A stretch of DNA of 39,603 nucleotides, taken from positions 1 through 39,603 of the forward strand of contig QPMI01000366.1 of NCBI GenBank assembly GCA_004431415.1. The letters are read 5' to 3'. Position numbers and translations under genes: made by a program. This document shows positions 14,578 to 39,603 of the stretch, piece by piece; within the stretch, counting starts at the first letter, position 1; the number at the start of each line of letters is the position of its first letter. The DNA comes from Cyanophora paradoxa CCMP329. Lineage: Eukaryota > Plantae > Glaucophyta. Below the pieces are notes generated by a model. That model was given only the letters and a program-made list of their open reading frames with translations, was not told the origin of the DNA and searched no databases.

Positions 14578-15839
14578 ATGCATATGCTCGTTGCCTTCAG
14601 CTTGATCTGCCTGCTATTCGCGAACGTGGACATGGCCAACGCGCAAGTATCAGCAACAATATCAGCCGCAATTGCTACCTCCACGGCACCCACAGCGACC
14701 ACAACGAGTGCAACGTTTGCGTGGACATTTACGTTTGCAAGGACACAGGGAACCGGAACTCCTCCGACGATTACTGTGACCTCACCAAAAGGCACCTGCG
14801 CCCATCCGTACGGCGTGACAGCGACCCAGACACACGTGACAGGCAGCGCTACTACAAATACAGGCTCATGGACGTCTTCTGCCCTCGCATACAGCTCCTT
14901 TCCGGAAACGGGTACTGCCCAGCAGCTCTCCTGCGCCGTGACCTTCACCGCTTCATGCTCAACGTGCACAACTACTGGTACTTTCACTTGCACTAACTGC
15001 GTTGCGGGTTCTTGTACGCTTTCAACGACTACTCCAATTACGCTTACGAACTGCGTGAGTAACACATTAACCCTCTCAACAACTCTCACTGCAGGTGGTC
15101 TCTTTATTTGGCTTTTGAAAAGCACGTGAGTTATCTAACGAGCCCTGCAGTGAAAACAATCACAGCGATTGGTTCGCCAACGGTTACGACTGCGAGCACT
15201 ACCAGCGTCAACGTTGGATCGGTGACCGTCACGCAATCATCTACCCCGACAACGCTGTACACGAACGCATTCCAATCTGTAACATGCACAAGCAACTCCA
15301 TTTCAGTGATTGTCGGCCCGACCGCGCTTGCCAGCACGGCAACCACAACTGCGGCTGTCAATGGCGCATCGTCGGCTTTGTGGGCCACTTCATCGTACCC
15401 CGTCAGCTGCAGGGTCACCGTCACCTACTCATACAATGGTACGATCACCAGCTCTGCAGTTTCAACCACTGGTGAGCGCCTTTAAATTTGCACGTCAGTT
15501 CATAAATGCATGTTGCAGTTGCCGCAATTCCTCACCGTCGCAATTGCTCCAGTTCCTTTCAAGACCGCATCGTCCTTGACATTCGGGACGCTCTTGGCCG
15601 CATCGACCACTTCAGTAACAGTCCCGTTCAGCTGGACGCTCTCGACGGGGTACGCGGCTTCCCCAACGTACGGCAGCTTGACTGTTACTTGCTCGGGATC
15701 CCCCGGAAGTGGCGTCGAGGTCACGAAGACAGGGAGCACGGTTCTTTCAGCCGGAGCCAGCAGCGCCTCTTTGGATGTGACTGGGTTTCCGGAATTGAGC
15801 TCACCCTACACAATATCGTGCTCCTCAGCACACATATGA
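14578..15839 (+). pseudogene. Secreted Thr/Ser-rich beta-strand-repeat surface protein, interrupted by the viral insertion
   Basis: Signal peptide MHMLVAFSLICLLFANVDMANA-Q. Introns 15095-15150 and 15472-15552 keep the frame. Three roughly 100-aa units end in similar motifs (FPETGTAQQLSCAVT / SSYPVSCRVT / FPELSSPYTISCS). The third is cut at ~15828 and reads into a stop inside the viral hairpin. Confidence 0.7.
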
Positions 15840-15903
15840 ATATTCATATTTTAATCCCTCGGCGTTCCGCCTCAGGATTAAAATATGAATATTCATATGT
15901 GTG
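15829..15903. repeat. Terminal hairpin: perfect 29-bp inverted repeat with a 17-nt loop
   Basis: CACACATATGAATATTCATATTTTAATCC (15829-15857) is the exact reverse complement of 15875-15903. Each arm contains the 16-bp palindrome ATATGAATATTCATAT. Confidence 0.95.
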
Positions 15904-16290
15904 ATTCGATGTTATATCAATAAAATCGATTAATTTATTTGAATTTTCACATGAATTTTCATATTTTTAAATGCATTTTCAATTAATTTAATCGATTTTA
16001 TATCGATAAACTCGATTAATCGATATTGTATCTTAATTGTAGTTAATCGGAATTATATCTATAACTTCGATTAATCTTAATTGAATCCTAAATGAATCTA
16101 ATCGGAATTATATCAATAAATTCGATTAAATCATGTTCTTTTCCTATTAAATCAATTAAATATTTAACTTTGTTACCATAAGTGGTCTAAGTTGACTCAC
16201 TTTTCATAAACATTTTGAACTCTTAGTCTCCTTGAATTTCTTAAGATGACTCAACTTAGTCAACTTAGTCAACTTTGTTACCATAATCAA

Positions 16291-17060
16291 TCAGGGTGGA
16301 CTCACTTTTAGATCAACTTTGAAATTTCAAGCAAAATCAACTTATATTTCAAAAGTGGATCTTCTAAGTGGACTCATAATGTTCACTTTGTGATACATTT
16401 AAGTTCTTATGCTTACTGTATATGGTCAGGGTTGACTAAGTGGGGGGAGTTGACACATTTTTCAAAATCTTTTATAGAATATTCTTTGGATCTCAAAATT
16501 TCCTCTGAAATTTGAGTCAACTCAACCCACTTAGTCAACCTTAGCATTGAAATGGTCACATTTTTATATACATTTACTCCTTTTACGATTAATATGAATC
16601 AACCATGAGTCCACTTAGTATTAAATATTAATCAATGTAAATATAAACAAGGGGATTAAGAGGAATGCTTATTGAATATGGTCAGGGTGGACTCACTTTT
16701 TCATACAAATCGAATTCCCAAGTAAATTTGACTCTAAATTGTTAGGTGGATCTTCTAAGTGGACTCAAAATGTTCACTTTGTGATACTTGTTAGCTCAAA
16801 TCCTTACTGTTTATGGTCAGGGTTGACTAAGTGGGGGGAGTTGACACATTTTTTCAAATCCTTTTTAGAAAACTTTAGGTCCCAAATATTTCCTGTGAAA
16901 TTTGAGTCAACTCAACCCACTTAGTCAACCCTTGCATTGAATTCGTAACAAAATCCATATACTATTACTACTTTTACGATTAATATGAGTCAACCTTGAG
17001 TCCACTTAAATATAAATATAATATAATAGGGGGAATCTAGGGGAGATGCTTACTAAATGC
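16291..17060. repeat. Two imperfect ~390-bp tandem direct repeats, each with an internal inverted repeat
   Basis: GGTTGACTAAGTGGGGGGAGTTGACACATTTT at 16430 and 16821. TTTGAGTCAACTCAACCCACTTAGTCAACC ends at 16540 and 16930. Motif blocks are conserved and spacers diverged. Confidence 0.9.
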
Positions 17061-17591: not shown

Positions 17592-17716
17592 AAAAAACCG
17601 CGTTTTTTTTTTACTTTTCAAGTTTCACGGCGAACGAAGTAAAGGTTCCCGGTCGGATTTGAACCTCGTAGTTCTGAGTCAGTAATCTAGCGCTTTATTG
17701 TCTGAGCCAAAAACGG
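17592..17716 (-). ncRNA. tRNA-derived Pol III-type unit (A box, B box, A-tract, T6 terminator); not a functional tRNA
   Basis: Minus strand: TGGCTCAGACAATAAAGCG...GAGGTTCAAATCC...A10-CGCGG-TTTTTT. A/B box spacing is tRNA-like, but the acceptor, T and anticodon stems are mismatched. Confidence 0.5.
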
Positions 17717-17942: not shown

Positions 17943-19328
17943 CTAGCTAGTTTTGGTCCTTTCTCTTAGTGTTCTCTGAGGTTTAGGGGCTGTATATGAC
18001 TCCTTAGTAGTCTGAAAGTCATTATACCATCTCTGGCTATTAACCTCAGAAAGTTTCTGTGTCCCTGCTATAGTGAGCTTTTTGAGTTCCCTATTAACCT
18101 TGCCAGTCTTCTCCTTTCTAGCCTCTATCAAAGGCTTATCTGGGACTTCATTAGCAGCTTCTATGCCTTCTCTCCTTATAGCAGCATCAACCTTGGCTTC
18201 CTCTTTGGCTTGCTCTAATGCATCCACTGTAGGGGTTTCTAGATATTCAACTGAATTCACAGGCAACAGCTCATGGAAAGCAAACCTGTTATCTATGATC
18301 TCACCAGTGGGACTCCTTAGCTTAAACTTAAAGCCTTCCCTACTATCAACAGTGTAAACTATCCTAGACCAATTGTTACCCTGTTTGGCAAAGGGGTTCT
18401 TCTCAACTTTCACTCTAACAAACATGCCAGGCTGCATGGTATCAAGGTAAGCTATTGATTTCTTGAATCTTTCATCTTCTAATCCCACTATATACCTATA
18501 ATGCTCCTCTGTAGTTTCGCCTGGCTTCATCTTAGTAGCTGAGTGGACTGTATTATTGTAATTATACTCAATATCACCTAACACATCAAAGAATCTAGCT
18601 GTGTTATTAGCTATGCAGTAGTTTGTGATCAGTCTCTTAATCTGCTTGTTAAAGGCTTCAATTCGACCTTGGCTTCTATGGTCAGCAGTTCCACTCACTT
18701 GGTGTTCTATGAATTTACTAGATAAATACTCCTGGAATATTCGATTTTGGAACTCACTCCCAGCATCTGATTGAACTTTTACTATGGGTCTTGCCACTCT
18801 CATTTCAAGCTGCTTAAATGCAGCCAATGTAGTGAGAGCTGATTTATCTCTTATAGGTATAATATACCCAGTTCTCAGTGTTGATTCCATTGCAGTCATA
18901 AATGTATCATAGCCATTGTTTTGTTTCTTATAAGCTGGGAAAAAGAGCAAATCAATCACATAGGTATCAAGGGGTTGCCTAATTGGGACCATGGGATCTC
19001 TCTTTCTAGATATAGCAGGTGCATTGATCTGAACAACTTCTTGTTTTTTATAGAACTCTTGCAACTGCTTATAGGATTCATCTGGTAACTCAGCCCTCAT
19101 AGCTTGAAGCCCTTTATAACCAGTTCTCACATCATAGAATCTCTTGGCAATCTTGCTGGTTTCTTTCACTGCAATAGCAACTGGGATCTCTACTGGGACA
19201 AGCTCTTTCATCTCTGACTTTTTTACAATTCGAGATTCCCCCTTTTCCTCCTTTGGAATTGTGATGGGCAGTAGGTTACCTTGCAGTTGCTCAGTGGTTC
19301 TCCTAACTATTCTTCCAGTTGCTGGCAT
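17943..19328 (-). CDS. Retrovirus-like (rve, DDE) integrase of Polinton type
   Basis: DDE triad in VIDLL...VQSDAGSEF...QGRIEAFNK. YNNTVHSATKMKP and G.FVRVK..K.PFAK..NWS motifs are typical of Polinton integrases. Intact 461-aa ORF. Confidence 0.95.
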   Translation of the reverse strand: MPATGRIVRRTTEQLQGNLLPITIPKEEKGESRIVKKSEMKELVPVEIPVAIAVKETSKIAKRFYDVRTGYKGLQAMRAELPDESYKQLQEFYKKQEVVQINAPAISRKRDPMVPIRQPLDTYVIDLLFFPAYKKQNNGYDTFMTAMESTLRTGYIIPIRDKSALTTLAAFKQLEMRVARPIVKVQSDAGSEFQNRIFQEYLSSKFIEHQVSGTADHRSQGRIEAFNKQIKRLITNYCIANNTARFFDVLGDIEYNYNNTVHSATKMKPGETTEEHYRYIVGLEDERFKKSIAYLDTMQPGMFVRVKVEKNPFAKQGNNWSRIVYTVDSREGFKFKLRSPTGEIIDNRFAFHELLPVNSVEYLETPTVDALEQAKEEAKVDAAIRREGIEAANEVPDKPLIEARKEKTGKVNRELKKLTIAGTQKLSEVNSQRWYNDFQTTKESYTAPKPQRTLRERTKTS

Positions 19329-19331
19329 CTC

Positions 19332-22300
19332 TTAATTAAAAGGAACAGAATTAATACCATCTGGTAAGATGTATCTCTTTGCATCAAAGCAGTTCAGGGC
19401 AACCCTTCTACTCACAGTGTCTATTATTGTGTGATCTGCCCTTCTCTTCTGCTTGGCAGTCACAGTCTTGCTTATACCTGCAAATAAACACTGCTTAAAA
19501 TCATTAAATTGGAGTTCCTCAGTTGAAGTCCCAGAGAGCATACTTCTCTCAATCTCAGCAGTTCTGAAACTGTAAACTTTGGCTCTCAGACCCACATATT
19601 CCAATATAGCAGAACCTGGCATCTCATTTTTGTATTTACCTGGGGTCATTCTGTTGGATCCCCCTAGATCCAGATTAAAGGATATATTCTCTAGATCCTT
19701 TTGGAGGGTCTTAGATTCGATATATAGACAAAAGGAATCAGTATCATGGAACAGTAATTTGGCTTTGGACCATTGGGACCTTACAGTATCATAGAAGAAC
19801 TGGTAATTATGCAGTTTGGCTGCATCCAAAACATAAGCCCCAATTGCAACAGGCTTATCTAGTTTCACATGCTTTGTGTAAAACTCAAAGGCAACTGCTT
19901 TTTCGTTTATGGGACTTGTTGATTTCACCAATGGGGAAGCTGCATATTTCATAAACAGTTTCTCACTGTTTGCAATCTTAACCACAGATCTACCTCTGCA
20001 AGATTCAATGCATTTCCCATAGATTGAGTTATTCATGAGTTTATAGAAATCAGCCTCGAATTTATTCACTGCTTTCCTTCTCATCTCAGTATTCAGCTCA
20101 ATGTAGGGTTTCATTACAGGAGCCACAGTAAATGAGAGGACCCTGTGAATTTTCTTTAATTTCACACCTTTGTCCAACAGATATTGCAGAAGAGGCTCAG
20201 AAATCACATAGTTTGCCACAGAACCAAAGGTTGCAGTTAGCTTTGGGGTTTTATCAAGCTCTTCTCCTGAAAGATCTAAAAGGCTCTTTTGATATTGTGA
20301 TAATTCGGCATAATCTATTATTTTCTTGTTAATGATTAGGGGGAAATCACTGTGATCTAGAAACAGCCTAATTGGGTAATCCAGATCAACTTCCAGGAAA
20401 CTGGATCTGTTATCTTGTGGGTTGAATTCGGTCTCCCATCTAAAATCACCAACTGGGATTGGCTGACTCAAACAGTAGCCATACAAGTTGTTAGCATCAA
20501 ACAGCATAATGTGGGAGTTTTCACCATCAGCCTCAGCATACCTACAAGGCATTGTTGCAAAGCCACCCCTGATTCCCCTCTCAACAAATTCATATTGCTC
20601 TACATCACTTATAAGCTCTATTTTTGCCTTGGTGGTCCTAAGCATAGCATCCCAAGATAACCCAGGTGCAGATACATAATGAACTGGGTCAAGTCCATAT
20701 ACTGAGTGTGAAAGCCTTCTGAAGGCTTGGAATTTGTCCATTAACTCATCTACATCAGCAGCTCCAAAGTCCATGAAATTACTTGCATCAATGAACTTGT
20801 AAAGTCCCCATTGCAATGAAAGGTATTGATCAAAGTTTTTTGAAAGGATTTCGATTCGCTTTTTATCCCCTAAACCTGCTATTTTTCTGAAAATGAATGT
20901 CCCACAGTCATCCATTTGGTCAACAACCACTGCAACTTTGGTTTGCTTTGAGATTCTCCTATGCAGATTGCAGTTTCTGCATGCAGGAGCAATGTAATGA
21001 CCTGTGTGGTGGTCATGATCTCTGCATTTGAAGTTCTCCTTGGTGAACCTCTCACTGCAAAGGTAACAGTGTTTAGTAGCCCTGTAAACAGCCTTTTGCT
21101 CATCTGTGAGTTCATTCATGGGAATATTGGTAAACAGAAAATCGATCAGCTCTCTTGCTTTGGACTCCAAGCATTCAAAGAGACCTCCCATTGGATCCTG
21201 CCCCTCAAATCGAAAATCTTGAACATCTTCCCCAGTGACTACTCTAAGGTTCACTGCTGAGACTTCCCTCTTAGATTTTGATGCATCAATGGGGATGCTT
21301 CTATGTTCAATCTTGCAGTAAACCACAACAGGAAGCCAAACAGTTTTCCTGAGGTTTTTCAGTCCAAACTCTATGGTGGTCTCAGGTTTTGGTGTGATTC
21401 CCTTTGAGAGTCTCCAATCAATGCATCTATTTGAGTCCACATGAGCAGTGAGTTTAGCCTCAGACCTGAATCGAGATAAGCATGTGTCACAGTAGTGTAA
21501 CTTCTGATCATTGTATGTTTCATGGTTTACTTTCAATAATCTTGAAAGGGACATGATTGTAATATAATGACCATTCCCTTCATCATCAAATATCAGCATG
21601 AGATTAACCTTATGCTTTCTGCCTGGGTTACTGGATTGATGCAGGGGATAAATAACCTCTCCATCGATTCCAAATATATTAATGCTAATGCCTGCATTTT
21701 GAGCCTCGAATTTATCAATAATCTCAGCATCACAGGCAACAGGGAATGGGATGTTATCGAAATTCAGAGCCAGCGGATTATAAGCGATTGCTGAGTATTT
21801 CCATTTGCGATATTGTGAAAGCTCATTCCTCTTATGGGAGTTTATCGCTTTTCTGTGAATATATGCCAAAATTGCATTTTCGAAGCAGGAATCATCAATA
21901 TTTCGAATATTCACTGTGGCTCTCTTCCTAGCAATCCACTCTGGGGTTTGTAGAAAGCATCCACCAGTTGGAGCATAACTCATAATAGCCACTCTGAGTA
22001 TTTCAATTCTTTCTAAGCGATAGCTATCAACCACATTCATCTGCTCCTGGCATATTTGGGCTGCTTTATTCAGCTCAGTTCGAATATTTCTCGATCTGGT
22101 TAGTACAAAATAATCGCTGTAAATGTATTTCGATATCCAAACCTGCGGATTGCTTACTTTTACGAACTTGCAGATAAAAGACAAGCGAACCTTGATTGCC
22201 CTGAATTGATCTAAACCCTGCTTTAATCGATTAGGAAGGGATGTAGCAATTCTGTCCAGGAATTCAATCACATCTACAACAACTTCCCTTCTGGCTCTGT

Positions 22301-22577
22301 AAGTGAGCCAGCGATATAATTCATTCATGGCTGTTCCATCTTCTGCCTCAGGTTCTATTTGCCTTAGGCGATCCAGTTCATCCAAGGTTTCAATTTTATC
22401 ATATAGGTTATTTGCTTTTCTGGTTAATCTGGCTAAAGTGGGTCTACCCTTTGCAATTAAATCTATTTCCCGGTCATATTCAGCCTCTGTTATTTCATGG
22501 GCTGCATAAAGTGTTCCCAGCAATCCCATGAGTTCCCATTTCTTCTCCCTTATGAGTTTGTTGGTAATTCGGGGCAT
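19332..22577 (-). CDS. Protein-primed family B DNA polymerase with putative terminal-protein region, vOTU-like protease, C2H2 finger and endonuclease VII-like insert
   Basis: Polymerase motifs FDANNLYG, KLMNNSIYGK, HDTDS and GLRAKVY. NIDDSCF...GHY is the vOTU-like Cys/His pair. CYLC..RDHDHHTGHYIAPACRNCN is EndoVII-like. Intact 1081-aa ORF. Confidence 0.96.
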   Translation of the reverse strand: MPRITNKLIREKKWELMGLLGTLYAAHEITEAEYDREIDLIAKGRPTLARLTRKANNLYDKIETLDELDRLRQIEPEAEDGTAMNELYRWLTYRARREVVVDVIEFLDRIATSLPNRLKQGLDQFRAIKVRLSFICKFVKVSNPQVWISKYIYSDYFVLTRSRNIRTELNKAAQICQEQMNVVDSYRLERIEILRVAIMSYAPTGGCFLQTPEWIARKRATVNIRNIDDSCFENAILAYIHRKAINSHKRNELSQYRKWKYSAIAYNPLALNFDNIPFPVACDAEIIDKFEAQNAGISINIFGIDGEVIYPLHQSSNPGRKHKVNLMLIFDDEGNGHYITIMSLSRLLKVNHETYNDQKLHYCDTCLSRFRSEAKLTAHVDSNRCIDWRLSKGITPKPETTIEFGLKNLRKTVWLPVVVYCKIEHRSIPIDASKSKREVSAVNLRVVTGEDVQDFRFEGQDPMGGLFECLESKARELIDFLFTNIPMNELTDEQKAVYRATKHCYLCSERFTKENFKCRDHDHHTGHYIAPACRNCNLHRRISKQTKVAVVVDQMDDCGTFIFRKIAGLGDKKRIEILSKNFDQYLSLQWGLYKFIDASNFMDFGAADVDELMDKFQAFRRLSHSVYGLDPVHYVSAPGLSWDAMLRTTKAKIELISDVEQYEFVERGIRGGFATMPCRYAEADGENSHIMLFDANNLYGYCLSQPIPVGDFRWETEFNPQDNRSSFLEVDLDYPIRLFLDHSDFPLIINKKIIDYAELSQYQKSLLDLSGEELDKTPKLTATFGSVANYVISEPLLQYLLDKGVKLKKIHRVLSFTVAPVMKPYIELNTEMRRKAVNKFEADFYKLMNNSIYGKCIESCRGRSVVKIANSEKLFMKYAASPLVKSTSPINEKAVAFEFYTKHVKLDKPVAIGAYVLDAAKLHNYQFFYDTVRSQWSKAKLLFHDTDSFCLYIESKTLQKDLENISFNLDLGGSNRMTPGKYKNEMPGSAILEYVGLRAKVYSFRTAEIERSMLSGTSTEELQFNDFKQCLFAGISKTVTAKQKRRADHTIIDTVSRRVALNCFDAKRYILPDGINSVPFN

Positions 22578-22635: not shown

Positions 22636-22820
22636 AGTGGACTAAGTGGGTGGAGTTGAGGCACTTTTTATTTCTTTTTAGGGCAGAGTCCTTTTTTAGA
22701 ATCTGTGAAAAAATGAGTCAACTCCCCCCACTTAGTCAACCTAATCGATAAATAAACCATAAATAAAAGACTGTTTGGGTCTTTTATGATAAATTTGAGT
22801 CAACCATGAGTCCACTTTTG
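22636..22820. promoter_or_regulatory. Third copy of the inverted GTKGACT motif cassette, upstream of pPolB
   Basis: GTGGACTAAGTGGGTGGAGTTGAG...GAGTCAACTCCCCCCACTTAGTCAACC...GAGTCAACCATGAGTCCACTT matches the cassettes at 16.4-17.0 kb. Function is inferred. Confidence 0.65.
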
Positions 22821-22827
22821 AGTAAAC

Positions 22828-25420
22828 CTAAACTTCAACATCAGAATCATAATCTGATGCATCAGGATCAGCAGCAGGTAGGTCCTGTTTCATCCTTGGA
22901 TTAGCTTCTTCCTCAATAGTCTCATCATCTACAAGCTTCATCTTTCTGAATTCCTCAAATACTTGTGGGAATAGGAAATGATAGTATTGTTTGCCATTTG
23001 TAGTTTTCACTTGGATATATGTAACACTTCTCATTTCAGTATAATATCGGCGACTATTATAATCGTTTTTATATTTATTGCTGGTAATAAACTCCTGGAA
23101 CCACTTCCAGGTTTCCACAAGGCTACCAGACTTGCATTTATTCTCGGAAATTAAGCCTCGATCCACAAGCCACTTAGTGAACATAAGAATGATTGGAGCG
23201 CACACCTGTTGGGCTAAATAGTATTTATTTGTAAGGGGTCTATCAGCAATCCAGTTCACATCCTCACAGTCAACTTTGGTTCTCAAATAGTGGGCAATGT
23301 TTCGAATATTGCAGTGATCATTTAGCCATTTTACAAGTGGAAGGAAGTATGACCTATCCTTTGCGAATTTCTTACTAACTTCAACAACCACAAATCGCCT
23401 ATCTCCAGCTTCAATTTTCACTGGAATGTTGTTATTGCTGGTGAATATAATCCTGGCAAAGTTGCTTTTTGTGTATGAATCTATCCCTTTGTGTTCAATT
23501 ACAATCTTATCAGAAGTTATGAGATCTTTGAGCATATCATTATTTTCGAATGTGTCCTTGCCTGAGGCTTCATTCACAACAATCAAGATCTTATCCTCTC
23601 TATTGTGGGCAAATCGACCAAACAGATCCTCTTTTGGCTTTCCAGTTGCATAACTTAGGGCATCTCCAAGTATCTTCTTTTGGAAAGTATCAACCAACAC
23701 ATTTTTACCAGTTCCCTGCTCACCAATGAAGATTAAGGATACTCCATTGAGTTCCCCAGGCTTTTGCAGCATGTGGGCAAACCATTTCAACAGATATTCA
23801 TAGGTATTTTGATCCTCACCAGACATTAAGAACAAGTGATCTAGGAAAGGCTTAATCATCTCAGCAGTTACATCCTCTGGAGCATTTTCGAATTGCTGAT
23901 GGTCGACCTTCATTCCTGGATAGAGATTAAATACAGACTTGCATTTTGCACTGAGAGTAGCAGGAGGGGGAAGGAAATCCATGTAAGTTGATCTTGTGGC
24001 TGTTGGATCCACAATCCATTTCCTAAATGATTGCTCCCATTTCTCTTTCTCATTATCTGTTCCCTCATTGACAATCACCTTATGCATCAAATGGGGAAAT
24101 GCTTTGTAGAGAGCTTCCCAATATCTTTGGGCATCCAGCAAAGTAGTTGTTCATCCCAGAGCATCACACAACCAACATTTTCAACATGATGCATTCGAGC
24201 ATTGAAATACCTCTTATGCACATTGTAATGTTCAGCCAAAGGAGGGATACTTGCAGTCTTGTAATCGATTTCATCTGTGTCCTCTGGTAGGAATGCATAC
24301 TTTTTGGGAAGAGTTCCTTGAAAAGCTCATTGTTATCTTTGCTCAACCAATAAACCAAGGATTTGAAGGTCAACACTTTGCCAGGCTCAGCCTTCTTCTT
24401 GCTTCTGCGAAGCTGTGTAAACTTTTCCTGGCATTCATCATAATCATACTTGTCACTCTGTTCTGAGAATTGGTGGAAGAGTTCAGCCTGCATTTTAGGG
24501 GTAAATTTGTTGTCTTCCCCAACATTGATGATGACCAGTCCAACATCAATCCAAGTCTTATACTCGCTGGCTCTTTCAGCATTGAGACCCATTATAACAC
24601 TTTGTAGCAGTTCGAAAGTAACAGGATTTTCGGGTTCAGTGTCTTTTTCAGCTTCTACCTTCTCAGTCTTCACTTTATCACTTTTTGGCTCCTTTTTAAC
24701 TGGTTTTGGCTCAGGAGTATAATTTGCAAATGCAGAAATATTTGATTCATCCACAAGTTTAGTAGTAGCTGAGAAGTAAGATACAAAGAAGTCCTCATTT
24801 CGCATTAACACTTTGTCACAGTCAACGAATTTCTTAAAGCAAACGTTTTTATCAACATCTTTCTTTGATTTATTTTGAGCATCCAGAGTCTCACCTTTGC
24901 AGCAATTGAGGCAGATAAGGTTCTGTGTGGAGCTGTAAACTCCACTGTCATAATCCTCATTTTTCACCAATCCCATAGCTTTGAAAAGCTTGGGGATATC
25001 TTCATGTTTGCAAGCAAGTGTTTTAATGATAAAGTGGGCTGAGATCTTGAACTTGGTGACATCCTCCTTGATCAAATAAACCCTTCTATGGCGAACTGCA
25101 ACAGCAATATCGTTAATAGAAGTGGTACCAGATCGCTTCCATAGCTTATCTCTCATCTCTCTTACAACAGTTTCCGCCTCAGCATAGTTATCAGCAATGT
25201 TCTCCTTCAAATCAGCGAATTTATCCAGGTCCAGGTAAACTCTGGTCACTTGCTCAGGTTGAATGCATTCAGCCCAGGTCTTAACCTTGCTATTATCAAT
25301 GGCTTCAAGGGCATCTTCGGCAGAATCAAATACATGGGTGACCTTGTTGCGATCACCAATGAGAGTACTAAGGAATGTAGCATTTTCAACAGGGGTGGCG
25401 AATTTCTCGATTTTGTTCAT
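22828..25420 (-). CDS. AEP-type primase + PriCT-2 + superfamily 3 helicase (D5-like); two homopolymer frameshifts at ~24303 and ~24093
   Basis: AEP motifs VYLDLD, KISAHF and DSGVY. PriCT-2 segment YKTWIDVG..FHQFSEQSDKYD. SF3 motifs GEQGTGKN, VVNEA and IIFTSNN. A bridging frame KYAFLPEDTDE...KHFP links the two ORFs. Confidence 0.88.
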
Positions 25421-25637: not shown

Positions 25638-25964
25638 TTATTCTTCGATATATTTCCGAGGTCTTCCAACCGGTTTATGCTCTTTGGGTTTCTTGGGCTG
25701 TTCATCTTTCTTCTTGTGGTAATATTCCAGCGCTTTTGCCTTTTTTTGCTCGCGATATTCTTCATTTTCCCTGTATTTCCTCTGGTGTCTGAGGGCAATC
25801 TTTTTGAGTTCTTCTGGTGTGTGAACTGTAGCGGCTCCTTGGGATAATCGTTCCTGCTTCTTTTTATGATAGGCTTCGCGTTTTCTTTGGGCATCTTGCT
25901 CCCTTTTCAGTCTCAGCTTCTCTGCTTTTTCATCATCTGTGAGTATCTTGCGGATATTCGGCAT
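25638..25964 (-). CDS. Small basic helical protein with a C-terminal AT-hook
   Basis: QRKYRENEEYREQKKAKALEYYHKKK...KPVGRPRKY; ATG start after an A-rich leader. Confidence 0.7.
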   Translation of the reverse strand: MPNIRKILTDDEKAEKLRLKREQDAQRKREAYHKKKQERLSQGAATVHTPEELKKIALRHQRKYRENEEYREQKKAKALEYYHKKKDEQPKKPKEHKPVGRPRKYIEE

Positions 25965-26116: not shown

Positions 26117-26362
26117 TTATAGACCTGTGGGTCCATTGCTACTATCAGTAGGCAAATAATATTTAATCGGTCTCCCTCTGGGTCTCTGCTCCTCTTTTTG
26201 GGCTTTTCTGCGATAATAGGATGCCAGGGCTTGTTGTTTCTTATACTCTCTATATGCTGGGTCCTCTCTATATCGTTTCTGCTTTGCTAGAATGTGTCTA
26301 ATAGCACCCTCAGTTAAAGGCTCATCACTAGTAAACTCGATCAAACTAATTGTATCCTCCAT
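26117..26362 (-). CDS. Small basic protein with an AT-hook-like motif, paralog of 25638-25964
   Basis: MEDTISL...QKRYREDPAYREYKKQQALASYYRRK...RPRGRPIKY. Confidence 0.65.
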   Translation of the reverse strand: MEDTISLIEFTSDEPLTEGAIRHILAKQKRYREDPAYREYKKQQALASYYRRKAQKEEQRPRGRPIKYYLPTDSSNGPTGL

Positions 26363-29731: not shown

Positions 29732-30691
29732 TCATCTTATAGTATTCATAAACTGGTCCCCAGCTGGCTCATCACCATAGCGAATTTCAAAGGTAAGATG
29801 AACAGGTTGACCCTCGAAATCAATTGGTTCATTAACAGCATTCACAATATCAACCGAGAAAGTGGATAATCCAACCTTCTTATTATAGTATTTGTAAAGT
29901 GGATGAGCCTCTGTCGAATTGTAAACTACATGCTCACCATAATCTTTGTCAGGGACCACTATTTTATGGAAGTAACCAGTCAGGAGACCATCCCCACATT
30001 GCACCAGATCACCCAGCTCCTTTACTCTCACAAACAAAACACTGTCCCTGGTCATTTCAGGCTCAAATGAAGATATAATACCGTTTACTCGAGTTCCAGT
30101 AAAGATTCCATCAGTGAGAGCATCATAGACCTGTGATTTGATTGGGGAATTACCATATCTTCCAGGGTCAAGACCAAAAAGTCGAGCTGAGCTTAACAGC
30201 TTTTGGATTGTTTTCAGGTTTGGGTCTACAGCAAGTGAGAAAGCCAGGTAAAACTTTTTTTCGGAATGGAATATAATTCGTTTCAGTGACTCATCCCATT
30301 TGCAGCGAACAGATGGTTTAGGATTTCTGTCATTAAACTTTTCATTTATAACATTCACCAGCTGTTGGTGGTTTTGAATGGGGGTTTCGCGATTTACAAT
30401 GAATTGTTTTCATTGTTCAAAATCAGCAGCTGGGCGAGTTGTTGGAATTCCTGTAGTTCCAGCTCCCGCAAGCTCTTCAGAATAATAAATACTAAAAGTG
30501 TTGTCAACTGTTATATCTCCTGCTTTGGTTTCACCACTCACCATAGGGATGCTGTTATAAAATTCGGCTGAGACCAGTCTCACAGCCCTCACATTCTCAT
30601 AAGTACTGGGGAGTCTAGCCACAAAGCTTGATGTGGGACCATCACCAGAGATTGTATTAAATGAGCTAACCTCGATGTAATCCACAGGCAT
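29732..30691 (-). CDS. Minor capsid protein (penton) 1, frameshift at ~30410
   Basis: N-terminal YIEVSS..SSFVARLP..YENVRAVRLVSAEFYNS and C-terminal LSTFSVDIVN..IDFEGQPVHLTFEI are single-jelly-roll penton signatures. Confidence 0.8.
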
Positions 30692-30720: not shown

Positions 30721-31653
30721 ATGAACCGGCTCGTTAATATTGATAGCAGGGATAGAAGCCAAGGACAAAATGAAAACTCTTACAGGGTCACCCTCACAAC
30801 TCCAGTAGAGAGACCAAGGGAATGCAGGGTTCTATATGCAGAGATTCCAAACAGCATCTATAACAGTGTGGGAACTGATCATCTAACAGTTCAGTTTAAT
30901 TACCAAGATGGTTCATATAACCAAGTGATCACACAACAAGTGTATCCCCTTCCCAGTGGCTACATCAATCAGGGTCATTTTGGGGTAACACACCCTTATA
31001 ATTATGGGCTGAACTATTCAAGCTTCCAAACCATTGCAGGCAAAACAGTAGCTTTTGAGTTCAAGATATTCTATAACCCAACTACCTATAAAGTGGAGTT
31101 TTACAGTAACCATGAGTTTCGTTTTATTGCAAGCAACCAGAGAATAGGGAAGCTTTTGGGTGTAAGTTCTACTGAATACACCAATGGGTATTATAGCACT
31201 CCTCCTGTTGGTGGATCACCCTATCGACCTGAGAACCTGTTAAAGTATGATGGCAAACCTATTACACCTGATCACCCAGCATGGGGAATCACCTTCTCAG
31301 GACCCAGACTCTCCTCAAAGCCCTTGCAGTATTATTTCACCAGTAATAAGATGTCTGATATGAATGCTGAGCAGTATCTGTACATGCATATTAAAGAGCT
31401 TGCCCCCTTTGCCAGCAGACACAATATAATTCCGAAATCGCAACCACAAAACCAGGGAGCTATCCTAAGATTGCAATTGAGTAAGGATATAGGTGGCTAT
31501 GTTTACCATAGTGGTGAGCATGCAGAATTTATTCAAATCAATGACAGAAACCTGGTGATAAGGGAACTCACAGTTGAGTTTAAAGATTACTTTGGTGAAC
31601 TGATTGATATGAATGGAATCGATAATTCGTTTCAGTTGGAGTTTATCGAATAA
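30721..31653 (+). CDS. Minor capsid protein (penton) 2
   Basis: VNIDSRDR..SYRVTL..VLYAEIPNSIYN and IRELTVEFKDYFGELIDMNGIDNSFQLEF; intact 310 aa. Confidence 0.85.
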   Translation: MNRLVNIDSRDRSQGQNENSYRVTLTTPVERPRECRVLYAEIPNSIYNSVGTDHLTVQFNYQDGSYNQVITQQVYPLPSGYINQGHFGVTHPYNYGLNYSSFQTIAGKTVAFEFKIFYNPTTYKVEFYSNHEFRFIASNQRIGKLLGVSSTEYTNGYYSTPPVGGSPYRPENLLKYDGKPITPDHPAWGITFSGPRLSSKPLQYYFTSNKMSDMNAEQYLYMHIKELAPFASRHNIIPKSQPQNQGAILRLQLSKDIGGYVYHSGEHAEFIQINDRNLVIRELTVEFKDYFGELIDMNGIDNSFQLEFIE

Positions 31654-33195
31654 AGGCACCTGTGAAATCAACTCTCATTGTGGGAGCATTCACATACACA
31701 AGGGATAAATGCGAATATATTTGATTCTGAGAGAGAAACCTATGTAAAAAGCATCCTTGATGCTGAGAGGAAATCCACTCAATAGAGCCACATCACCAGA
31801 GTTGTGAGCATTGTTAATGTTCTCACAGACATATATTTTGTTTTGCCCATCTGATCGAATAAAAGACCAGTTGATCCCATCAGTGGATGTTGCCACATTG
31901 AAAGTCTTAATAAAAGCATTTGTTTCCCCTGATCCATAGGCAATCACAGATGAGAGTTCAAAAGTATATGGAAAAGCAACTTGAAGGTATTCAGTGGGAG
32001 TTTCCCATATTTGTTCAGGAGCATAGGCTCCAGCTTCCCAGCCAAATGCTGAAGGTCTTGCCATGAAAGGCTCTTTACCTGTCACAGAGGATGAGGCAGT
32101 AAAGGCATCATCTGCAAGCTGATACCAATTAGCATCTAAAGGAGGTGACTCTGTGAGAGTGGATGAGATGTAAGCCTTTGTAGGGTTCTTTAGTTCATAG
32201 TTTGCTACTAGAAGACTGCAAAGCTTATTAATCATATCATTGTTTGCTGCTATGTATGTTTCAGTGAATGCTAGCATATCTGGGATCTTAGATGTGTCAT
32301 CCAGAGAGCTTACAATGTGATTTGGAAGAGGGACTGATAGCCTATAGTATCTTCCATAATCCTGATCATAGTTGTAGGGTAACAACTCCTCCATCTTATC
32401 AAGGGCAGAAAGCTCACTTGCAGCCATGAGCATGTTAATCAATGGGCTTCCATCTGTTGAGGCAATCCATGAGAGAATTCCCCAGCTGTTCACAGTCTCA
32501 TAAGCATAACCCACATAATCAGACTCTAAATGTGGTCCACCTCACCACAAGAGATGCTTATTACTATAATATCATCATCATCACTGTAAATCTTCTTTGC
32601 ATGGCTGTAACCACACACACTGGGATTATTGTTTCCCGAAATGGCACCATCAATGAGACAGACAAATACCCCTGATTGAAATCAACAATGCTTACAGGAG
32701 AGAAATATGTAGGAGCAGCAGAAGTAGCCCTAGCAGCAATCTTACAAGGCAGAAAGCTGTAATTGTTATCATTTGTGATAAATATTGGTTTCATATTCTG
32801 AGTATCAAAGGATGTAATCACAATGTCCTTTAAGGAATCCTGTATTAGTGATTCACCAGTAACTGAATTGATTGCAGTCTCCAAGGGTCCCACATCATAT
32901 TTTGTATTAAAAAGGGCATTTTCGATGATATTTCGAGGATTTGCGAAAATCAAGGGCAGTTGAGTTAGGTAAATATTGTGTAAATCGTTTGCTGTCAGTT
33001 TAGGTTCACCTGGTTTATCAGGATGCCTTATATTCAAACCTATTGCAATGATCCCACCAGTGGAAGTTCCACTCACAAGATCCACAAGATCGATTATTCT
33101 CCTGCCAGTTCGATTTTCGATTTCTTTGAGCAGCCTGGTTATGATAATGCCCTTGCACCTCCCCCTGACAAACTGAGAACTACTTTGAGAGGCAT
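31643..33195 (-). CDS. Patatin-like phospholipase fused to a C-terminal discoidin (F5/8 type C) domain; several frameshifts
   Basis: Patatin motifs LSLSGGGARG, GTSTG, ARATSAAPTYF and LIDGA. Discoidin motifs FTASS, YLQVAF, TSTDGINW and KYIRIYP. Confidence 0.85.
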
Positions 33196-33238: not shown

Positions 33239-36200
33239 ATGAGCTTCAATTACCCACCCAATCTAGAAACCATTCAAGATGATAATGCAAGCAGCACCAA
33301 GCATGTGAACTTTGATAATATTAAAGTAAAGGGTTCAGTTTCGATTGACCACAGTTCCGATAATTCATCCAAGACTCAATCAAGGGAGCATGCTTTATCT
33401 GTGAATCAAACCGATCCAGATAAGGAGGAAGTCAGTGTAGCTTTTAGCTTGGGTAATGTGAAAGCAAACCAAGTGGCAGAGATCAAAGCAACAAGAAGGA
33501 GACCTAGGAAACTAAAAACCAGTGGCACTCACCCAGATATACCTTCTAGGTTTGATAGTGGTCGATTGATTTTCAATGTTCAAGATGAGCAGGGCAAACA
33601 GAACACAGGTTTGCGAATTTACAATGAGGGCAGCACTGCAAAAGCTGAGGTCCCCCAAGTATTGCAAGTGGGTCCCATTGCCAACACAAATCAGGTCTCC
33701 TACACAAATGATGTCTACCCCAAGGATATTACATATGACTTTGCAAGGAATGAGCCTTTTGGGTTCTTTACTCCAAAAGATGTCCATCAAAAAAAGCCAT
33801 CAATTACAATCAACAGTACCCCAGTCAACCAGTAGCAATCCATTTACATCCTGATCTTGTTGAAATGGATAGGCACCTTTTGCCTTTGTATAGCAATGTG
33901 AAAGACCTTGGAATTCGAACCAGGCAATGGCGAAATATCCATGGCAGCAATGTGTATGCAAATGGAGAGAAGCTTGTAAGTGAGAAGACCATAAGAGAGA
34001 TCTTGAGTATTATGGACCTGTCCCAGTTCCCTTCCCTCTTCCATGGGATCCACCGGATTTAACACCGAAAAAGCAACCAGGCAGAGAGTACACAGCAACT
34101 GAAGATGTAGCCTTTGGGCAGCATATTGTGAGTTGGGAGCAAGTTCGCAATAAACCTATAATTGAACCAGAAAGCAAATAGATGAGCAGTATTTACCTCC
34201 TGAAGTCGATATATTAGAGCTTGATGAATATCAATTCGTCCCAGATGAGGAAGAGTATTTACCAGATGGTTTTGACCCACAAGAATATGAATATGATCAA
34301 TTTGACCCCAATGAGGAGGAGATACTACCAGATGGCTTAGATCCACAAGAGTTTGAGTATGAGCAGAACTATGAACCTGATGAGGAGTATTTACCTGATG
34401 GTCATGATCCACCAGCTGTTGACTATGAGCAACCTTATGAACCCCATGAGGAATTGTTACCAGATGGATTTCGACCTGAGATCTGGGAGTTCTTTCCTGA
34501 TTATGAACAAATTAATAATAAACCTGCAAAGTATCCCCCAGAGGATCACAATCATGATTGGGATGAGATCTTAGGCAAACCTCAAAAGTATCCACCAGAG
34601 GATCACAGGCATGATTGGGGAGAAATTGATGGAATACCAGAAGAATTTCCACCAATCAAACATGAACACACTTGGGATGAGATTAATGACCAACCAGAAT
34701 TCGCAAAAGTGGAGCCTCTTGATAACTTGGGGGTTTCTCTTTATCAGACTTGTAATGTCCCAGAAAGAATCTTTTTGAATGAACACTATGTACATGTGAA
34801 TGGGACACTTGCAAATTCAGCTATGAGAGGACCACTTCATATTAGGACATTACCAGGCTCTTATAATCCACCACCTGAACCAGGAGCAACCATACCAAAT
34901 ATCTTTGTGTCAAGCTACATGGAGGCTGACATTCCCACAGATACATTCAGAGTCCCAACAGACCCAGCAACCTACCAAAACTTTAACTCTGCTATACAGG
35001 TTCATGTTGCAGATGTAAGCAGTTTAGATGGCTCAAGACCAATGATAGTTTTCAGTCGAGATAAATATTCCTACATTCCCACAGTGGGAACTGCAAATGA
35101 TAACTATGGGAGGGCAGAGCTTGCATGGATCAAAACGAATTATGGTGGGTTCTTGAAGCCAATCAAAGAATGGCTGCAAAAACATACACAATGAGAGCAT
35201 TTCGAGAGTGGTCACAGAGATTACCTTACTGCAGTAATCCTTGTTAATTTGTAACCCTTGCTATGCTTGATCAATTATTACAGAAGCTGAACTTGCAGCA
35301 GAACTATCCAAATATCTCCCTCTTGTGGTGGGACAATCACAGGAAACCTCACAGTTAATAGTAATATTTACAGTAGCAATATAGAGACCAGCAATTTGAA
35401 AGTAAATGGAATCCTCACAATTGGCTCTTGCAATTCAATACCATGAATCAGTTTACGAAGAATGTATGATGTCCCACCAAGCTTTGATCCAGCATCAAAT
35501 ATCTCGAACTGCATTTTTGCTTGGAAGGCATCAGGAGTACCAGGTCAATCAGCAATGTATACAACTATAGTAAGCAGAGTCCGAATTCAGTTGTTCCAGA
35601 CTTGTTATCTCCGGAGCCAGTTCCTATTACACCAATCCCGAAATCAACAACCAAGTTAGTGTTTCAAACCCAACAGCACTTTTATGCATATACCTCTGCT
35701 GCAAGAACTATTGATTTCTCAAATGGCTTACATTTTCTTTGTGGAAAATATCATCCAACTGCTCTTCTATGCAAGTTCACTTGAGACTTTACAGAAGCGC
35801 CTTTCCATCACGATATTGTTATTATGGGGCAACATCTTCTACTGCTATTGGAATGAACCAGTTCACTATTAATGAGCATCCCAAACCCGCCCAGTTATTA
35901 CGGTTCCTTCTTTAATAAATACATGTATTACACTGACCAAAACAATTACTTCCAGCAGCTACACATCGGGTTAAATGAGTAGATATTGAAACACTTGTAG
36001 AACAAATTATCTACCAGATAATACTGTCAATCATTTCGGATTTGGTAATATTGTGAATGGTGTATTTCCGAGTTGATTGTTTTCAATAGGGCTTTGACAA
36101 CTTCTGAAAAGAATGCTGTGAGGTATTACATTCAACAAAATATGGATTCACTCATACCCAGACTCTGAATATTTACAGAGGATTAAAAATAACCTCACCT

Positions 36201-39200
36201 GATACTGTAATAGATTACCTTACAGTTACAAGCAATGCAAATTTACCACATCATCCAACCTCTAATGTGGTTCAAGGTTGGATTCAAAATCACACTCACA
36301 CAAAAGCCCAGATTACAGATTTGCCCATACTCACACAAAAGACCAAATAACAGATTTTGCCCATACTCACACAAAAGACCAAATAACAGATTTCGCCCAT
36401 ACTCACACAAAAGACCAAATAACAGATTTCGCCCATACTCACACAAAAGACCAAATAACAGATTTCGCCCATACTCACACAAAAGACCAAATAACAGATT
36501 TCGCCCATACTCACACAAAAGACCAAATAACAGATTTCGCACATACTCACACCAAAGATCAGATCACAGATTTTGCCCATACTCACACCAAAGATCAGAT
36601 CACAGATTTCGCCCATACTCATTTATGGGAGCATATCACAAATCCTCCATTAACCTTCCCACCTGATTCACACACTCATGATTACTCAACAATAACCAAT
36701 AGCAACCACAGACACCCTTGGAGTCAAATAGATGAACAACCAACTTTTGCATCATCAGGCAATATTTTGACAGACTTTACAAATGGTGTGAGTCTCTACC
36801 AGAGTAATACCATACCTGAAAGGCTACAACTAAATGATTATTATGTCAATCGAAAAGGCATTGATGCAGGGACCACAATGGAAGGTGAATTATACATCAA
36901 ACAACCAACAAGAATCCAAATGATTTCAGCAGGTGGTGTTGGGGTGATTGATACCAAACCAGGCATCTTCTTAACAAGTTATTATAATGAGGACATCCAT
37001 TGACATCAGGATTACCACCTCTCCCATCTGATCCAGCAGCATATGATGACAAGGATGCCATTATGCAAGTAAATGTAACAGATGTCAGTGCAACTGATGG
37101 CTCCAGACCTAAAATAATATTCAGTCGATCCAAATTCAATTATGTCCCACTTGCGGGACAACCATCAGATAACTATGGGAAATGCGAAATGTCCTGGATT
37201 AAAACATTAGCAGGAGGAGCCTTAGAAGTCAATCAGAGGATGGCAGCAAAAAACTTACACAATGAGACCCTCTCTGGTGTTGTTACAGATGATTATTTAG
37301 AAAACAAAGATTATGTAACAAATACAGAATTACAATTAGCTCTTACAGATGTTGTAACAGATACCGAATTAACAGCAGCTCTTGGGAATTATTTACCTCT
37401 TACAGGTGGAACTGTAACAGGAACTGTGAATGCTACCACTTTACAAATTGGTGGAACCACAATACCAAAAGGTTACGATTTCGACCAATTAGATGTGGTT
37501 TCGACAGATAGAAGCGCAAATAATTGGAACTTAGGATGGACACCAAGAACCGGACAAACAGGATGTTATACAACACCACAAAATGATGAAGATTGTAGCG
37601 CTTGTTGGATGAGGTGGAATGTCCCCACAGGAATGAAAACGTTTTATATTCAAACCATGTGTTGGTCTAATTGTAGATATTTTGACATCTATGGTCAAAC
37701 AGCTAATGGTAATCAACATTTCCTTCGGCGTTTAAATGTTTATCAAGGTATTCAAGCATCAGTACATGATGGAACACAATCCAGTATACTTTTCATCTCT
37801 ATTAACTGTGAGTTTTACACAAAAATATATGTTCAAGGTCGAAAAGGTAGAATCCATCTTACAGGTGTTTTGGTGGAGTAGACAGAGAGCAACAGATAAT
37901 GAATTGGGCTGATCTCTTGGGATAATATATTTAGAACCATCATTTTACTCAGCCGCAGACCTTCCACAAACCGCAACATGGGCAACAATACATGGTTAAA
38001 ATCAGTAGATGCAGTCGAGCGAATTTGGTTTGGTAATGGCGATCACATATATTCGAGGGAGAAAATGGTGATGGTGTCTCAATTGAATTTAGAAACTCAG
38101 CGAATGCAGCAATCTTAAAATCATATGGTAATGGTAACTTTTGGGTGAATAACACTATTACAGCACCCACTATTAATGCTACTACCAAACTCCAAATAAA
38201 CGGTAATGATGTCCCAAAGTTTCACACAGCAGATAAAACAGTAGGAGGTATTGCATTTAATAGATGTTCTGAGGGTTGGACATGGGCATGGAGTACAGCA
38301 TGGGATCCATATTATAATTATGGTTCATATGTCCATAATAATCAATCTGATGACGAAACTTCTACCGCTTGGATTGACTTCGATATACCCGATGGATACC
38401 ACAGGAACAGCATTTTTAACTATTTACCTTGGACTAACTCACGACTTTTTGAAATTTGGGGAGTTAATAGACAAGGGAATGAAGTTTTTATTACATCAGT
38501 GAATAGTTATCAACCATACGCCACATGCCTGATGGTAACCACAGTGGTTTAAATAATGTTCCAATACATCTTGGAAATAGATTCCTCACTATTCGGATTA
38601 GACCAAAGATTGGAAGAGTTCATATTATGGGTATTAGTTACATGAAAATTTGGGTAGGAAATAGTTATGGTGGTCACACCGGCTATATTCATTGGAATAA
38701 CGTTTATAGTAAACCAAATATCTTAACAGGATGTGGGGACTTGGTTTAGTTCAAGTGATGGATATAATCGTATCCATTTCGGTAACCAAACTTCTACATA
38801 TTTGAAAGGAGGGGGAGATATTCCCCTTGTATTCCGAAATGAACAAGATACTGATATTTGTTACATGTATCATGGAGGATGGATGTGGATTGGAGGTTAT
38901 TTAACACAAGGAAGTGACATAAGATACAAAACCGATATTAAAAAGATATCCGGCGCTCTTTCAGCAATAGAGAAATTAGAGGGAGTGAGTTTTTAAACGA
39001 ATTGGAAGTGAAAAAGATGGAGTTAAATTAGGTTTAATTGCACAAGATGTTCAAAAGGTAATACCAGAGGTAGTTAATGTTAAAAAAGACGATGGCTACC
39101 TATCTCTTGAATACCAGGTTTAATTCCAGTTCTCATTGAAGCTGTGAAGGAGTTGTCCCAAAAATGCAAAGATCTACAGGATCAAATAGACCAAATTAAA

Positions 39201-39257
39201 AATGTCAAAGTATATATAAATGGCGACCTATCCTCTTGGTGGAACCACCTATTCTAA
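33239..39257 (+). CDS. Giant tail-fibre/receptor-binding protein (fragmented; may be more than one gene) with a C-terminal peptidase S74 chaperone
   Basis: HxHxWxEI and FAHTHTKDQITD repeats, YLPLTGGTVTG fibre motif, LamG-like ISELIVFNRALT..E..., and GSDIRYKTDI...GLIAQDVQKVIPEVV...LIPVLIEAVKEL. Confidence 0.75.
34190..34500 (+). repeat. Acidic coding repeats (E-E-x-L-P-D-G-x-D-P-x-x-x-E/D-Y), about 4-5 imperfect units
   Basis: Recurrent TTACCAGATGG / TACCTGATGG at intervals of roughly 63-66 nt. Confidence 0.7.
36291..36621 (+). repeat. 36-bp tandem coding repeat (about 9 units) encoding FAHTHTKDQITD
   Basis: Contiguous units GATTTCGCCCATACTCACACAAAAGACCAAATAACA with synonymous variation and no spacers. 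Confidence 0.95.
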
Positions 39258-39470
39258 CTGAGCCGTTGCGCTTTCTTTTGATACAATCACCCTTGTAAAC
39301 GCATTACAAACAGTTGAAAAGACGATTCAGCAAACTAACAAGCTCTCACCAGTTGTAAATGAGTATAAAAACCTCTTGGTTAATGTCCTTGCCAATCTGG
39401 CTCATATGGTGACCCCAGCTAAATACACCTGAATATGTGATAACAACATCAAAGCAATGACATCCAACCT
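39220..39470 (+). CDS. Small hypothetical viral protein (frameshifted)
   Basis: TATATATAAATG start MATYPLGG..., continuing in another frame as SFDTITLVNALQTVEKTIQQTNKLSPVVNEYKNLLVNVLANLAHMV. Confidence 0.35.
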
Positions 39471-39603
39471 TCACACTTTCAGTTGCCTACCAATCCCTTG
39501 GATCGAATTTAATCACTTTGGCTTGATTGCAGTTTATTTTTCTTTCTTCTTAGTAAAAAGAAGCAATGGGTGAATATAATCGAGTTCAACTTCCATATAT
39601 TCC

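What the first reader, a model, noticed from the sequence alone, without database searches (positions are those of the whole stretch)
15829..39603. Endogenous Polinton-like virus with an unusual combination of modules
Seen: integrase, pPolB, AEP-SF3 helicase, ATPase, MCP, two pentons, patatin-discoidin, an S74-capped fibre, a hairpin end and a Pol III-type unit, in AT-rich DNA inside a very GC-rich protist genome. Known: canonical Polintons carry pPolB, rve, ATPase, an adenain protease, MCP and one penton. No adenain is visible in this window. Inference: a distinct, recently integrated lineage with an elaborate entry apparatus that may be able to reactivate.
Basis: partly seen in the sequence, partly recalled or inferred. 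Interest (0 to 1): 0.85.

Follow-up and report, generated by a model that had tools for sequence, protein, structure and literature searches.

The report
Algal provirus with proofreading-less polymerase
This is one of dozens of related copies of a small DNA virus inserted in the genome of a likely glaucophyte alga; its gene set is largely catalogued already, but its DNA polymerase has lost its proofreading motifs and likely works together with a neighbouring primase-helicase.

Summary
The element is real: 15,830 to past the window end, 39% GC against 72%, with rve, pPolB, primase-SF3 helicase, A32 ATPase, double-jelly-roll MCP, two likely pentons, patatin-discoidin, S74 fibre and a 73-nt terminal hairpin. 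Short-read data confirm the junction, suggest roughly 45-100 related copies, and indicate that the ~34 frame breaks are mostly assembly errors. The 'unusual combination' is mostly known: its MCP family is listed for Cyanophora paradoxa (Bellas 2023), and a 156-element glaucophyte tally shows no protease with frequent rve, pPolB, lipase and S74 (Bulzu 2025). Beside an SF3 helicase, it looks like a further independent case of the published 'exonuclease loss, helicase gain' pattern. Origin-like repeats bracket rve+pPolB. Reactivation is untested; CpG depletion points to methylation silencing. This scan noted a similar G·A hairpin and replicase mosaicism on other DNA of this genome.

The parts
15830..15902 (.). 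Terminal palindrome: 28-bp perfect stem; on the minus strand (3' end here) the tip has GA/GA mismatches and a GAA loop
   Evidence: junction contigs 14267/14477-15855 at single-copy depth in X1 and X6
15886..16136 (.). Four AT-rich ~55-nt subterminal repeats, CpG not depleted
   Evidence: (D3)
16291..16628 (.). Origin-like unit 1 (internal inverted repeat, GAGTCMAC motifs); function inferred
16682..17019 (.). Origin-like unit 2, 84% identical to unit 1
17592..17710 (-). tRNA-like Pol III-type unit (A-box-like, B box, T-run); not a tRNA; untested
17943..19328 (-). rve (DDE) integrase, 461 aa, unbroken, D-D-E motifs present
19332..22577 (-). pPolB, 1081 aa, unbroken: TP-like N-terminus, vOTU Cys/His, EndoVII-like insert, degenerate and shortened exonuclease, polymerase motifs A/B/C present
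22637..22829 (.). Origin-like unit 3, a shorter direct copy (60-64% to units 1 and 2) between pPolB and the primase-helicase stop
22828..25420 (-). Primase (AEP by motif)-PriCT2-SF3 helicase, ~860 aa, two frame breaks absent from laid short-read contigs
25638..25964 (-). Small basic protein with AT-hook-like tail; likely DNA-binding
   Evidence: AT_hook E 0.13
26117..26627 (-). Two short overlapping ORFs, one resembling the 25638-25964 protein by eye
26650..27384 (-). 244-aa orphan with basic N-terminus; possible core protein (inference)
   Evidence: no informative hit
27413..28193 (-). A32 packaging ATPase, two frame breaks; Walker A and B present
28259..29628 (-). [quoted passage not shown]
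29732..30691 (-). Likely minor capsid protein 1, frame-broken
   Evidence: weak
30721..31653 (+). Likely minor capsid protein 2, 310 aa, unbroken
   Evidence: weak
31690..33195 (-). Patatin phospholipase followed by discoidin (F5/8) domain, likely one protein, three frame breaks
33239..39220 (+). Fibre of about 2,000 aa: acidic repeats, phage-tail-like 12-aa repeats, a duplicated module, two paralogous tip domains, C-terminal S74 chaperone; middle part varies among copies
39220..39603 (+). Short ORF and unfinished sequence; the element continues past the window
   Evidence: (loose ends at 39591-39601)

Best explanation
This is an integrated, multi-copy Polinton-like virus of a capsid lineage so far listed only for the alga Cyanophora, whose protein-primed-type polymerase has lost its proofreading motifs and likely copies the genome together with the adjacent primase-SF3 helicase. 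Shown: gene set, left junction, many related copies, exonuclease degeneration, hairpin, repeats, CpG depletion. Inferred cycle: rve inserted the linear genome; host CpG methylation likely keeps it silent; on activation the helicase would load at the GAGTCMAC-rich palindromic units and unwind DNA, the exonuclease-less pPolB would elongate, primed by its terminal-protein domain (released by vOTU) and/or by the 3' fold-back hairpin; the A32 ATPase would fill a double-jelly-roll capsid that matures without an adenain protease; the S74-chaperoned fibre and discoidin would bind cell-surface glycans and the patatin would breach a membrane. It encodes no RNA polymerase in the window, so it would rely on host or helper-virus transcription.
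For: Identity and host link. Junction and copies: flank contigs at depth 84 (X1) and 32-40 (X6); single contigs over the helicase gene 3,800-4,100 (X1) and 1,524 just upstream of it (X6), about 40-50 fold in both; fibre start 8,444 and part of pPolB 9,826 in X1, about 100 fold. Breaks: both helicase breaks carry an extra base in all laid depth of X1 and X6; fibre contigs differ by 12 gaps and 0 substitutions over 621 bases. 34 of 48 listed differences between copies are silent, none a stop. Exonuclease: Asp at the ExoI column in 96 of 97 homologues with a residue (window K), Asn at ExoII in 111 of 114 (window Q); a marker span is 44 aa in the window and P0009 against at least 135 in the other 113 measurable proteins and at least 129 in 45 measurable loci; an X15 contig bridges the deletion without gaps. 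Window + P0009 form a long-branched pair (SH-aLRT 100, quick tree). PMC11161782 ties exonuclease loss to helicase gain in mavirus and Tlr1-like enzymes. CpG observed/expected 0.07-0.54 in genes against 1.09 in the flank; viral genes are methylated and mostly silent in C. paradoxa (PMC12344493).
Against: No activity, transcript or particle evidence. The genes next to P0009 could not be seen, so co-occurrence of exonuclease loss and helicase rests on this one element. Short-read contigs show the family majority, not this copy, which could be truly broken. Depth is a rough copy measure. Two priming systems (terminal protein and hairpin/primase) are redundant, and the bracketing repeats fit a separately acquired rve+pPolB block equally well. 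Parts of pPolB appear at about twice the depth of the helicase gene, so some copies pair this polymerase with something else or a diverged helicase. AEP catalytic domain and pentons are weakly supported. Right end missing.
Confidence: 0.6

Rival explanations
1. Composite element: an rve+pPolB cassette (transpoviron-like) was acquired between origin repeats by a hairpin-ended virus that replicates with its primase-helicase alone; the polymerase is a passenger or is being phased out.
For: Direct repeat units flank exactly rve+pPolB (13 of 15 GAGTCMAC matches lie in the two repeat clusters, 1.5 expected in all). rve and pPolB are among the most CpG-poor genes (0.07, 0.25). The same rve-pPolB pairing occurs with unrelated capsids (rve in 37 of 85 loci). 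Repeats bracketing one replicase are described in bioRxiv 10.64898/2026.10.13.758929; terminal palindromes go preferentially with non-pPolB replication in Halocafeteria. X15 and X20 hold a form lacking rve.
Against: Unit 3 is only 60-64% like units 1-2, so any insertion is old; rve is the only integrase seen; pPolB is unbroken with silent-biased variation (12 of 20) and intact polymerase and vOTU residues; its N-terminal part has depth similar to the helicase (2,500-3,500).
Confidence: 0.25
2. A decayed provirus: the breaks and the exonuclease loss are pseudogenisation, and the family no longer makes particles.
For: At least 34 frame changes in the window; strong CpG loss; internally deleted forms in X15/X20 (joins 17522-19513 and 17368-31470).
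Against: Breaks are single-base losses with almost no substitutions against short-read contigs, while the single-copy flank 14477-15855 has none; the exonuclease deletion is in frame and shared with a protein only 47-51% identical; differences among copies are mostly silent.
Confidence: 0.12
3. The high read depth reflects a freely replicating virus or episome in the cultures rather than many insertions.
For: Depth alone cannot tell the two apart; hairpin ends would suit a linear episome.
Against: Similar ratio to the flank in a 2012 and a 2024 run; 366 MCP genes are counted in a public C. paradoxa assembly; copies are 88-99% alike rather than clonal.
Confidence: 0.05

Closest known systems
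Cyanophora paradoxa endogenous PLVs (MCP clusters MMPC21 and MMPC29, PMC10120064; gene tally in PMC12220804 Table S6)
   Same: MCP family (P0001 is listed there); of 156 elements 139 Pox_A32, 85 rve, 49 DNA_pol_B_2, 15 PriCT_2, 37 S74, 89 lipases, 0 protease; discoidin-patatin fusions named for glaucophyte PLVs
   Different: These are tallies; in the parts I read there is no description of the exonuclease state, dual replicase, hairpin or repeats. Whether this locus is among the 156, and which cluster it belongs to, was not determined
Group 1 Polintons/Mavericks (Polintoviricetes)
   Same: pPolB with TP-like, vOTU and EndoVII-like parts (32-39% identical over the polymerase region), adjacent rve, ATPase, DJR capsid
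   Different: Exonuclease degenerate; extra primase-helicase; no adenain seen; unrelated MCP lineage; two likely pentons; terminal hairpin
Mavirus-type virophage replication module and Tlr1-like pPolB-S1H (PMC11161782)
   Same: pPolB without a working exonuclease plus a helicase; rve
   Different: Here the loss is partial, the EndoVII-like insert and both motif C aspartates remain, the helicase is fused to a primase, and the capsid is not virophage-like; so likely independent (no tree with mavirus was built)
Dual-replicase polisuviruses (bioRxiv 10.64898/2026.10.13.758929) and palindrome-ended elements of Halocafeteria (bioRxiv 10.64898/2026.07.28.741278)
   Same: Internal repeats bracketing one replicase set; terminal palindromes proposed to prime replication
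   Different: Here a palindrome coexists with a pPolB that keeps its TP and vOTU parts

Membership tests
Polinton-like viruses in the broad sense (Polisuviricotina) | [quoted passage not shown] | tested here: met
   on homologue P0001; link it to the window
Polinton-like viruses in the broad sense (Polisuviricotina) | A32/FtsK packaging ATPase | tested here: met
   Pox_A32 E 8e-8; Walker A
Polinton-like viruses in the broad sense (Polisuviricotina) | [quoted passage not shown] | tested here: inconclusive
   weak hits only; hhalign negative (115-117); fold pLDDT 32 (88)
Polinton-like viruses in the broad sense (Polisuviricotina) | TIR pair and target-site duplication | not testable with these tools
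   right end outside the window; no genome held
Polintoviricetes (canonical Polintons) | pPolB and rve integrase | tested here: met
   exonuclease degenerate
Polintoviricetes (canonical Polintons) | Adenain/Ulp1 maturation protease | tested here: inconclusive
   none in window; right end missing; 0 of 156 glaucophyte elements
Polintoviricetes (canonical Polintons) | Maverick/Polinton-type MCP | tested here: not met
   only 6 hits at E<=0.001 among 1.84 billion representatives; no match in 85 pPolB-bearing loci; both Cyanophora clusters are unnamed in Table S4
Virophaviricetes (virophages) | Virophage-type MCP | tested here: not met
   PBCV-1 E 5e-19 ranks above Sputnik 2e-13 and mavirus 5e-12; MCP-VIR 0 of 156
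Virophaviricetes (virophages) | Replication dependent on a giant virus | not testable with these tools
   needs co-infection experiments
Cyanophora PLV MCP clusters MMPC21/MMPC29 | MCP within the cluster (25% identity threshold in that table) | tested here: met
   56-62% to P0001, which is listed in Table S2; which of the two clusters is not resolved
Mavirus-like exonuclease-less pPolB with SF3 helicase | Exonuclease lost and SF3 helicase present | tested here: met
   works like it
Mavirus-like exonuclease-less pPolB with SF3 helicase | First Asp of motif C missing, most of exonuclease gone (PMC11161782) | tested here: not met
   both Asp present, EndoVII-like insert kept; not a member

The most novel reading that the evidence does not exclude
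A virus caught changing replicases: an independent loss of pPolB proofreading in a Polinton-1-type enzyme, now dependent on a primase-SF3 helicase and on self-priming G·A hairpin ends, present as dozens of intact, inducible proviruses with swappable fibres in a culturable alga. It would make the proposed exonuclease-for-helicase trade directly testable with closely related exonuclease-positive controls.
Probability: 0.3. Interest if true: 0.75.

Novelty: new variant of a known kind. Interest (0 to 1): 0.52.

Why it matters
The virus family itself is catalogued, so the gene list is not news. The polymerase is: exonuclease loss with helicase gain has been proposed from two highly derived enzyme groups, and this enzyme is still 32-39% identical to proofreading relatives, so it can show what is lost and what the helicase makes up for. 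If the frames are open in most copies, a laboratory alga holds many candidate inducible proviruses without a maturation protease, useful for asking how such capsids mature and enter cells. It also warns that assembly errors in repeats make such elements look dead.

Tried and rejected
No whole genome was held, so the right end, TIR, TSD and other copies could not be read. MCP, helicase, rve and the repeat motif found no relatives in viral contigs; a 'longer' protein search with the MCP piece found none; MCP alignments were too diverse for locus scans. The pPolB scans returned only exonuclease-length relatives (45 of 85 loci measurable, 18 of 85 at least 8 kb, so absence of helicase hits there is weak). 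No RNA holder listed; runs guessed to be RNA (X15, X20) hold 90-95%-like, partly deleted forms and say nothing on expression. tRNA reading of the Pol III-type unit rejected; Rfam miRNA hits on the hairpin are far below gathering scores. PDB sequence searches gave nothing for the EndoVII-like insert or AEP part. Penton fold unusable. Fibre tip fold not obtained (Atlas unavailable). The pPolB tree is a quick tree of 40 of 125 sequences (one more dropped for lacking the anchor motif), midpoint-drawn, with no mavirus or Tlr1 row, so it does not prove independent origin. Nested insertion with its own TIR/TSD at the repeat units: none seen. PMC8502044 was not read.

Full report
Observation. The window is host DNA at 72% GC with intron-rich genes up to about 14,500, a 54% GC gene for a Ser/Thr-rich protein cut off at 15,829, and then 39% GC DNA to the end. 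The element starts with a 73-nt palindrome at 15,830-15,902 (z -14). Contigs of two public DNA runs run from the flank 26 bases into the element at single-copy depth (X1 84, X6 40), so the junction is real. The element continues past 39,603. Pfam, PHROG and NCBIfam scans support rve, pPolB with an EndoVII-like insert, PriCT2 plus SF3 helicase, A32 ATPase, patatin, discoidin, phage-tail-like repeats and S74. The capsid gene is 56% and 62% identical in two pieces to P0001, a 456-aa protein with a Cyanophora paradoxa accession; its model (pLDDT 63, 8 rows) matches PBCV-1 capsid protein at E 5e-19. The host is therefore likely that glaucophyte; earlier notes of this scan say the same of this genome. 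Pentons, the AEP catalytic domain and the Pol III-type unit are only weakly supported.

Broken frames. rve, pPolB and the second penton candidate are open; the other six large genes need at least 34 frame changes, 24 in the fibre (shuffled fibre 77-97). Short-read contigs carry an extra base at both helicase breaks in all laid depth; in the fibre one contig differs by 12 gaps and no substitution over 621 bases, another by 15 gaps and 2 substitutions (12 of 76 indel rows were shown). The single-copy flank 14,477-15,855 has no gap in X6. This is the pattern of unpolished long-read errors in repeats (inference); it does not prove that this particular copy is intact.

Copies. Single contigs over the helicase gene have depth 3,800-4,100 in X1, and one just upstream of it 1,524 in X6, about 40-50 times the flank; the fibre start and part of pPolB reach about 100 times; the fibre middle only about 17-21 times, and X6 holds a form skipping 35,149-37,230. 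Depth is a rough guide only. Of 48 listed differences in coding regions (best-supported rows only) 34 are silent and none is a stop, which fits purifying selection.

What is known. PMC10120064 (passages; supplement 2 rows and parts 28, 29) lists P0001 as a validated MCP and counts 366 MCP genes in C. paradoxa in two unnamed clusters. PMC12220804 (passages, sections 11 and 16, supplement 1 part 33) tallies 156 glaucophyte elements: 139 Pox_A32, 85 rve, 49 DNA_pol_B_2, 15 PriCT_2, 37 S74, 89 lipases and 0 in all nine protease columns, and names discoidin-patatin fusions. bioRxiv 10.64898/2026.06.19.733378 (passages, section 6) says Gosseviruses are the only major PLV group with a core protease. 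bioRxiv 10.64898/2026.10.13.758929 (parts 1-4 of 5) describes dual-replicase genomes with repeats bracketing one replicase. bioRxiv 10.64898/2026.07.28.741278 (passages) reports terminal palindromes.

What is new. The pPolB keeps vOTU Cys231/His337 and polymerase motifs A, B and C, but has Lys where 96 of 97 homologues with a residue have the ExoI Asp, Gln where 111 of 114 have the ExoII Asn, and a marker span of 44 residues against at least 135 (median 138) in 113 of the 115 measurable sequences; the only other short one is P0009, 49% identical in the polymerase region (motif names ExoI-III are recalled). None of 45 measurable loci out of 85 has the deletion. A contig of X15 bridges it without gaps. 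Window and P0009 form a long-branched pair in a quick tree. PMC11161782 (passages) states that exonuclease loss goes with helicase gain in mavirus and Tlr1-like enzymes and proposes compensation; PMC12721341 (passages) adds a fusion that keeps the exonuclease. Searches gave no report of this state in an EndoVII-type pPolB or in Cyanophora. The neighbours of P0009 are unseen, so the pairing with a helicase rests on one element.

Cis elements. Three direct copies of a palindromic unit lie at 16,291, 16,682 and 22,637 (84%, 64%, 60% pairwise); GAGTCMAC occurs 15 times against 1.5 expected, 13 in these clusters. They bracket rve+pPolB and end at the helicase stop. An origin bound by the helicase is the likely role (inference). 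Genes have CpG observed/expected 0.07-0.54, the terminal region 1.08 and the flank 1.09; PMC12344493 (passages) reports 32% CpG methylation and methylated, mostly silent viral genes in C. paradoxa.

Mechanism and rivals. Best reading (0.6): a silenced provirus whose exonuclease-less pPolB works with the primase-helicase, with terminal-protein and/or hairpin priming, packaged by A32 into a protease-independent capsid and entering by fibre, discoidin and patatin. All activity steps are inferred. Rivals: rve+pPolB as a separately acquired cassette (0.25), a decayed family (0.12), free episomes (0.05).

Verdict. Real, not canonical Polinton or virophage by capsid, member of an already catalogued Cyanophora PLV capsid family; a new variant through its polymerase and origin anatomy. 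Interest 0.52.

Noticed in passing
window 14578-15829 (+): The insertion cuts a gene for a Ser/Thr-rich, probably secreted protein at 54% GC, well below the 72% of the other flank genes; no useful family hit.
   Followed up: partly
window, 8-19 bases upstream of starts at 25964, 26627, 27384, 28193, 29628, 30691 (-): A motif WTA(1-4)GADA precedes six consecutive structural-block genes (6 of 13 starts tested; 10 of 953 other ATGs; 48 of 899 AT-rich windows), not rve, pPolB or the helicase. The pattern was made after seeing these sequences, so it is a lead for a late promoter only.
   Followed up: partly
window 17368/31470 and 17522/19513: Runs X15 and X20 hold internally deleted relatives (one joining the left end to the penton region, one lacking rve and the Pol III-type unit), and X15 shows the same terminus in another flank.
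   Followed up: no
window 37420-37878 and 38037-38549 (+): Two paralogous fibre tip domains (30% identical, E 7e-15) with no family hit; many short joints in this region suggest tip variation among copies.
   Followed up: partly
window 20960-21100 (-), within pPolB: The EndoVII-like insert keeps a DHDH and CxxCN pattern (recalled as catalytic in T4 endonuclease VII) although the surrounding exonuclease has decayed; it could cut hairpin or branched ends. Untested.
   Followed up: no
window 8320-10159 (+): Host S-adenosylmethionine synthetase-like gene with many short introns, recognised by eye from translations.
   Followed up: no
window 17700: Laid contigs differ from the window at this base of the A-box-like stretch; single contigs here have lower depth (about 7-20 fold) than the coding genes.
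   Followed up: no
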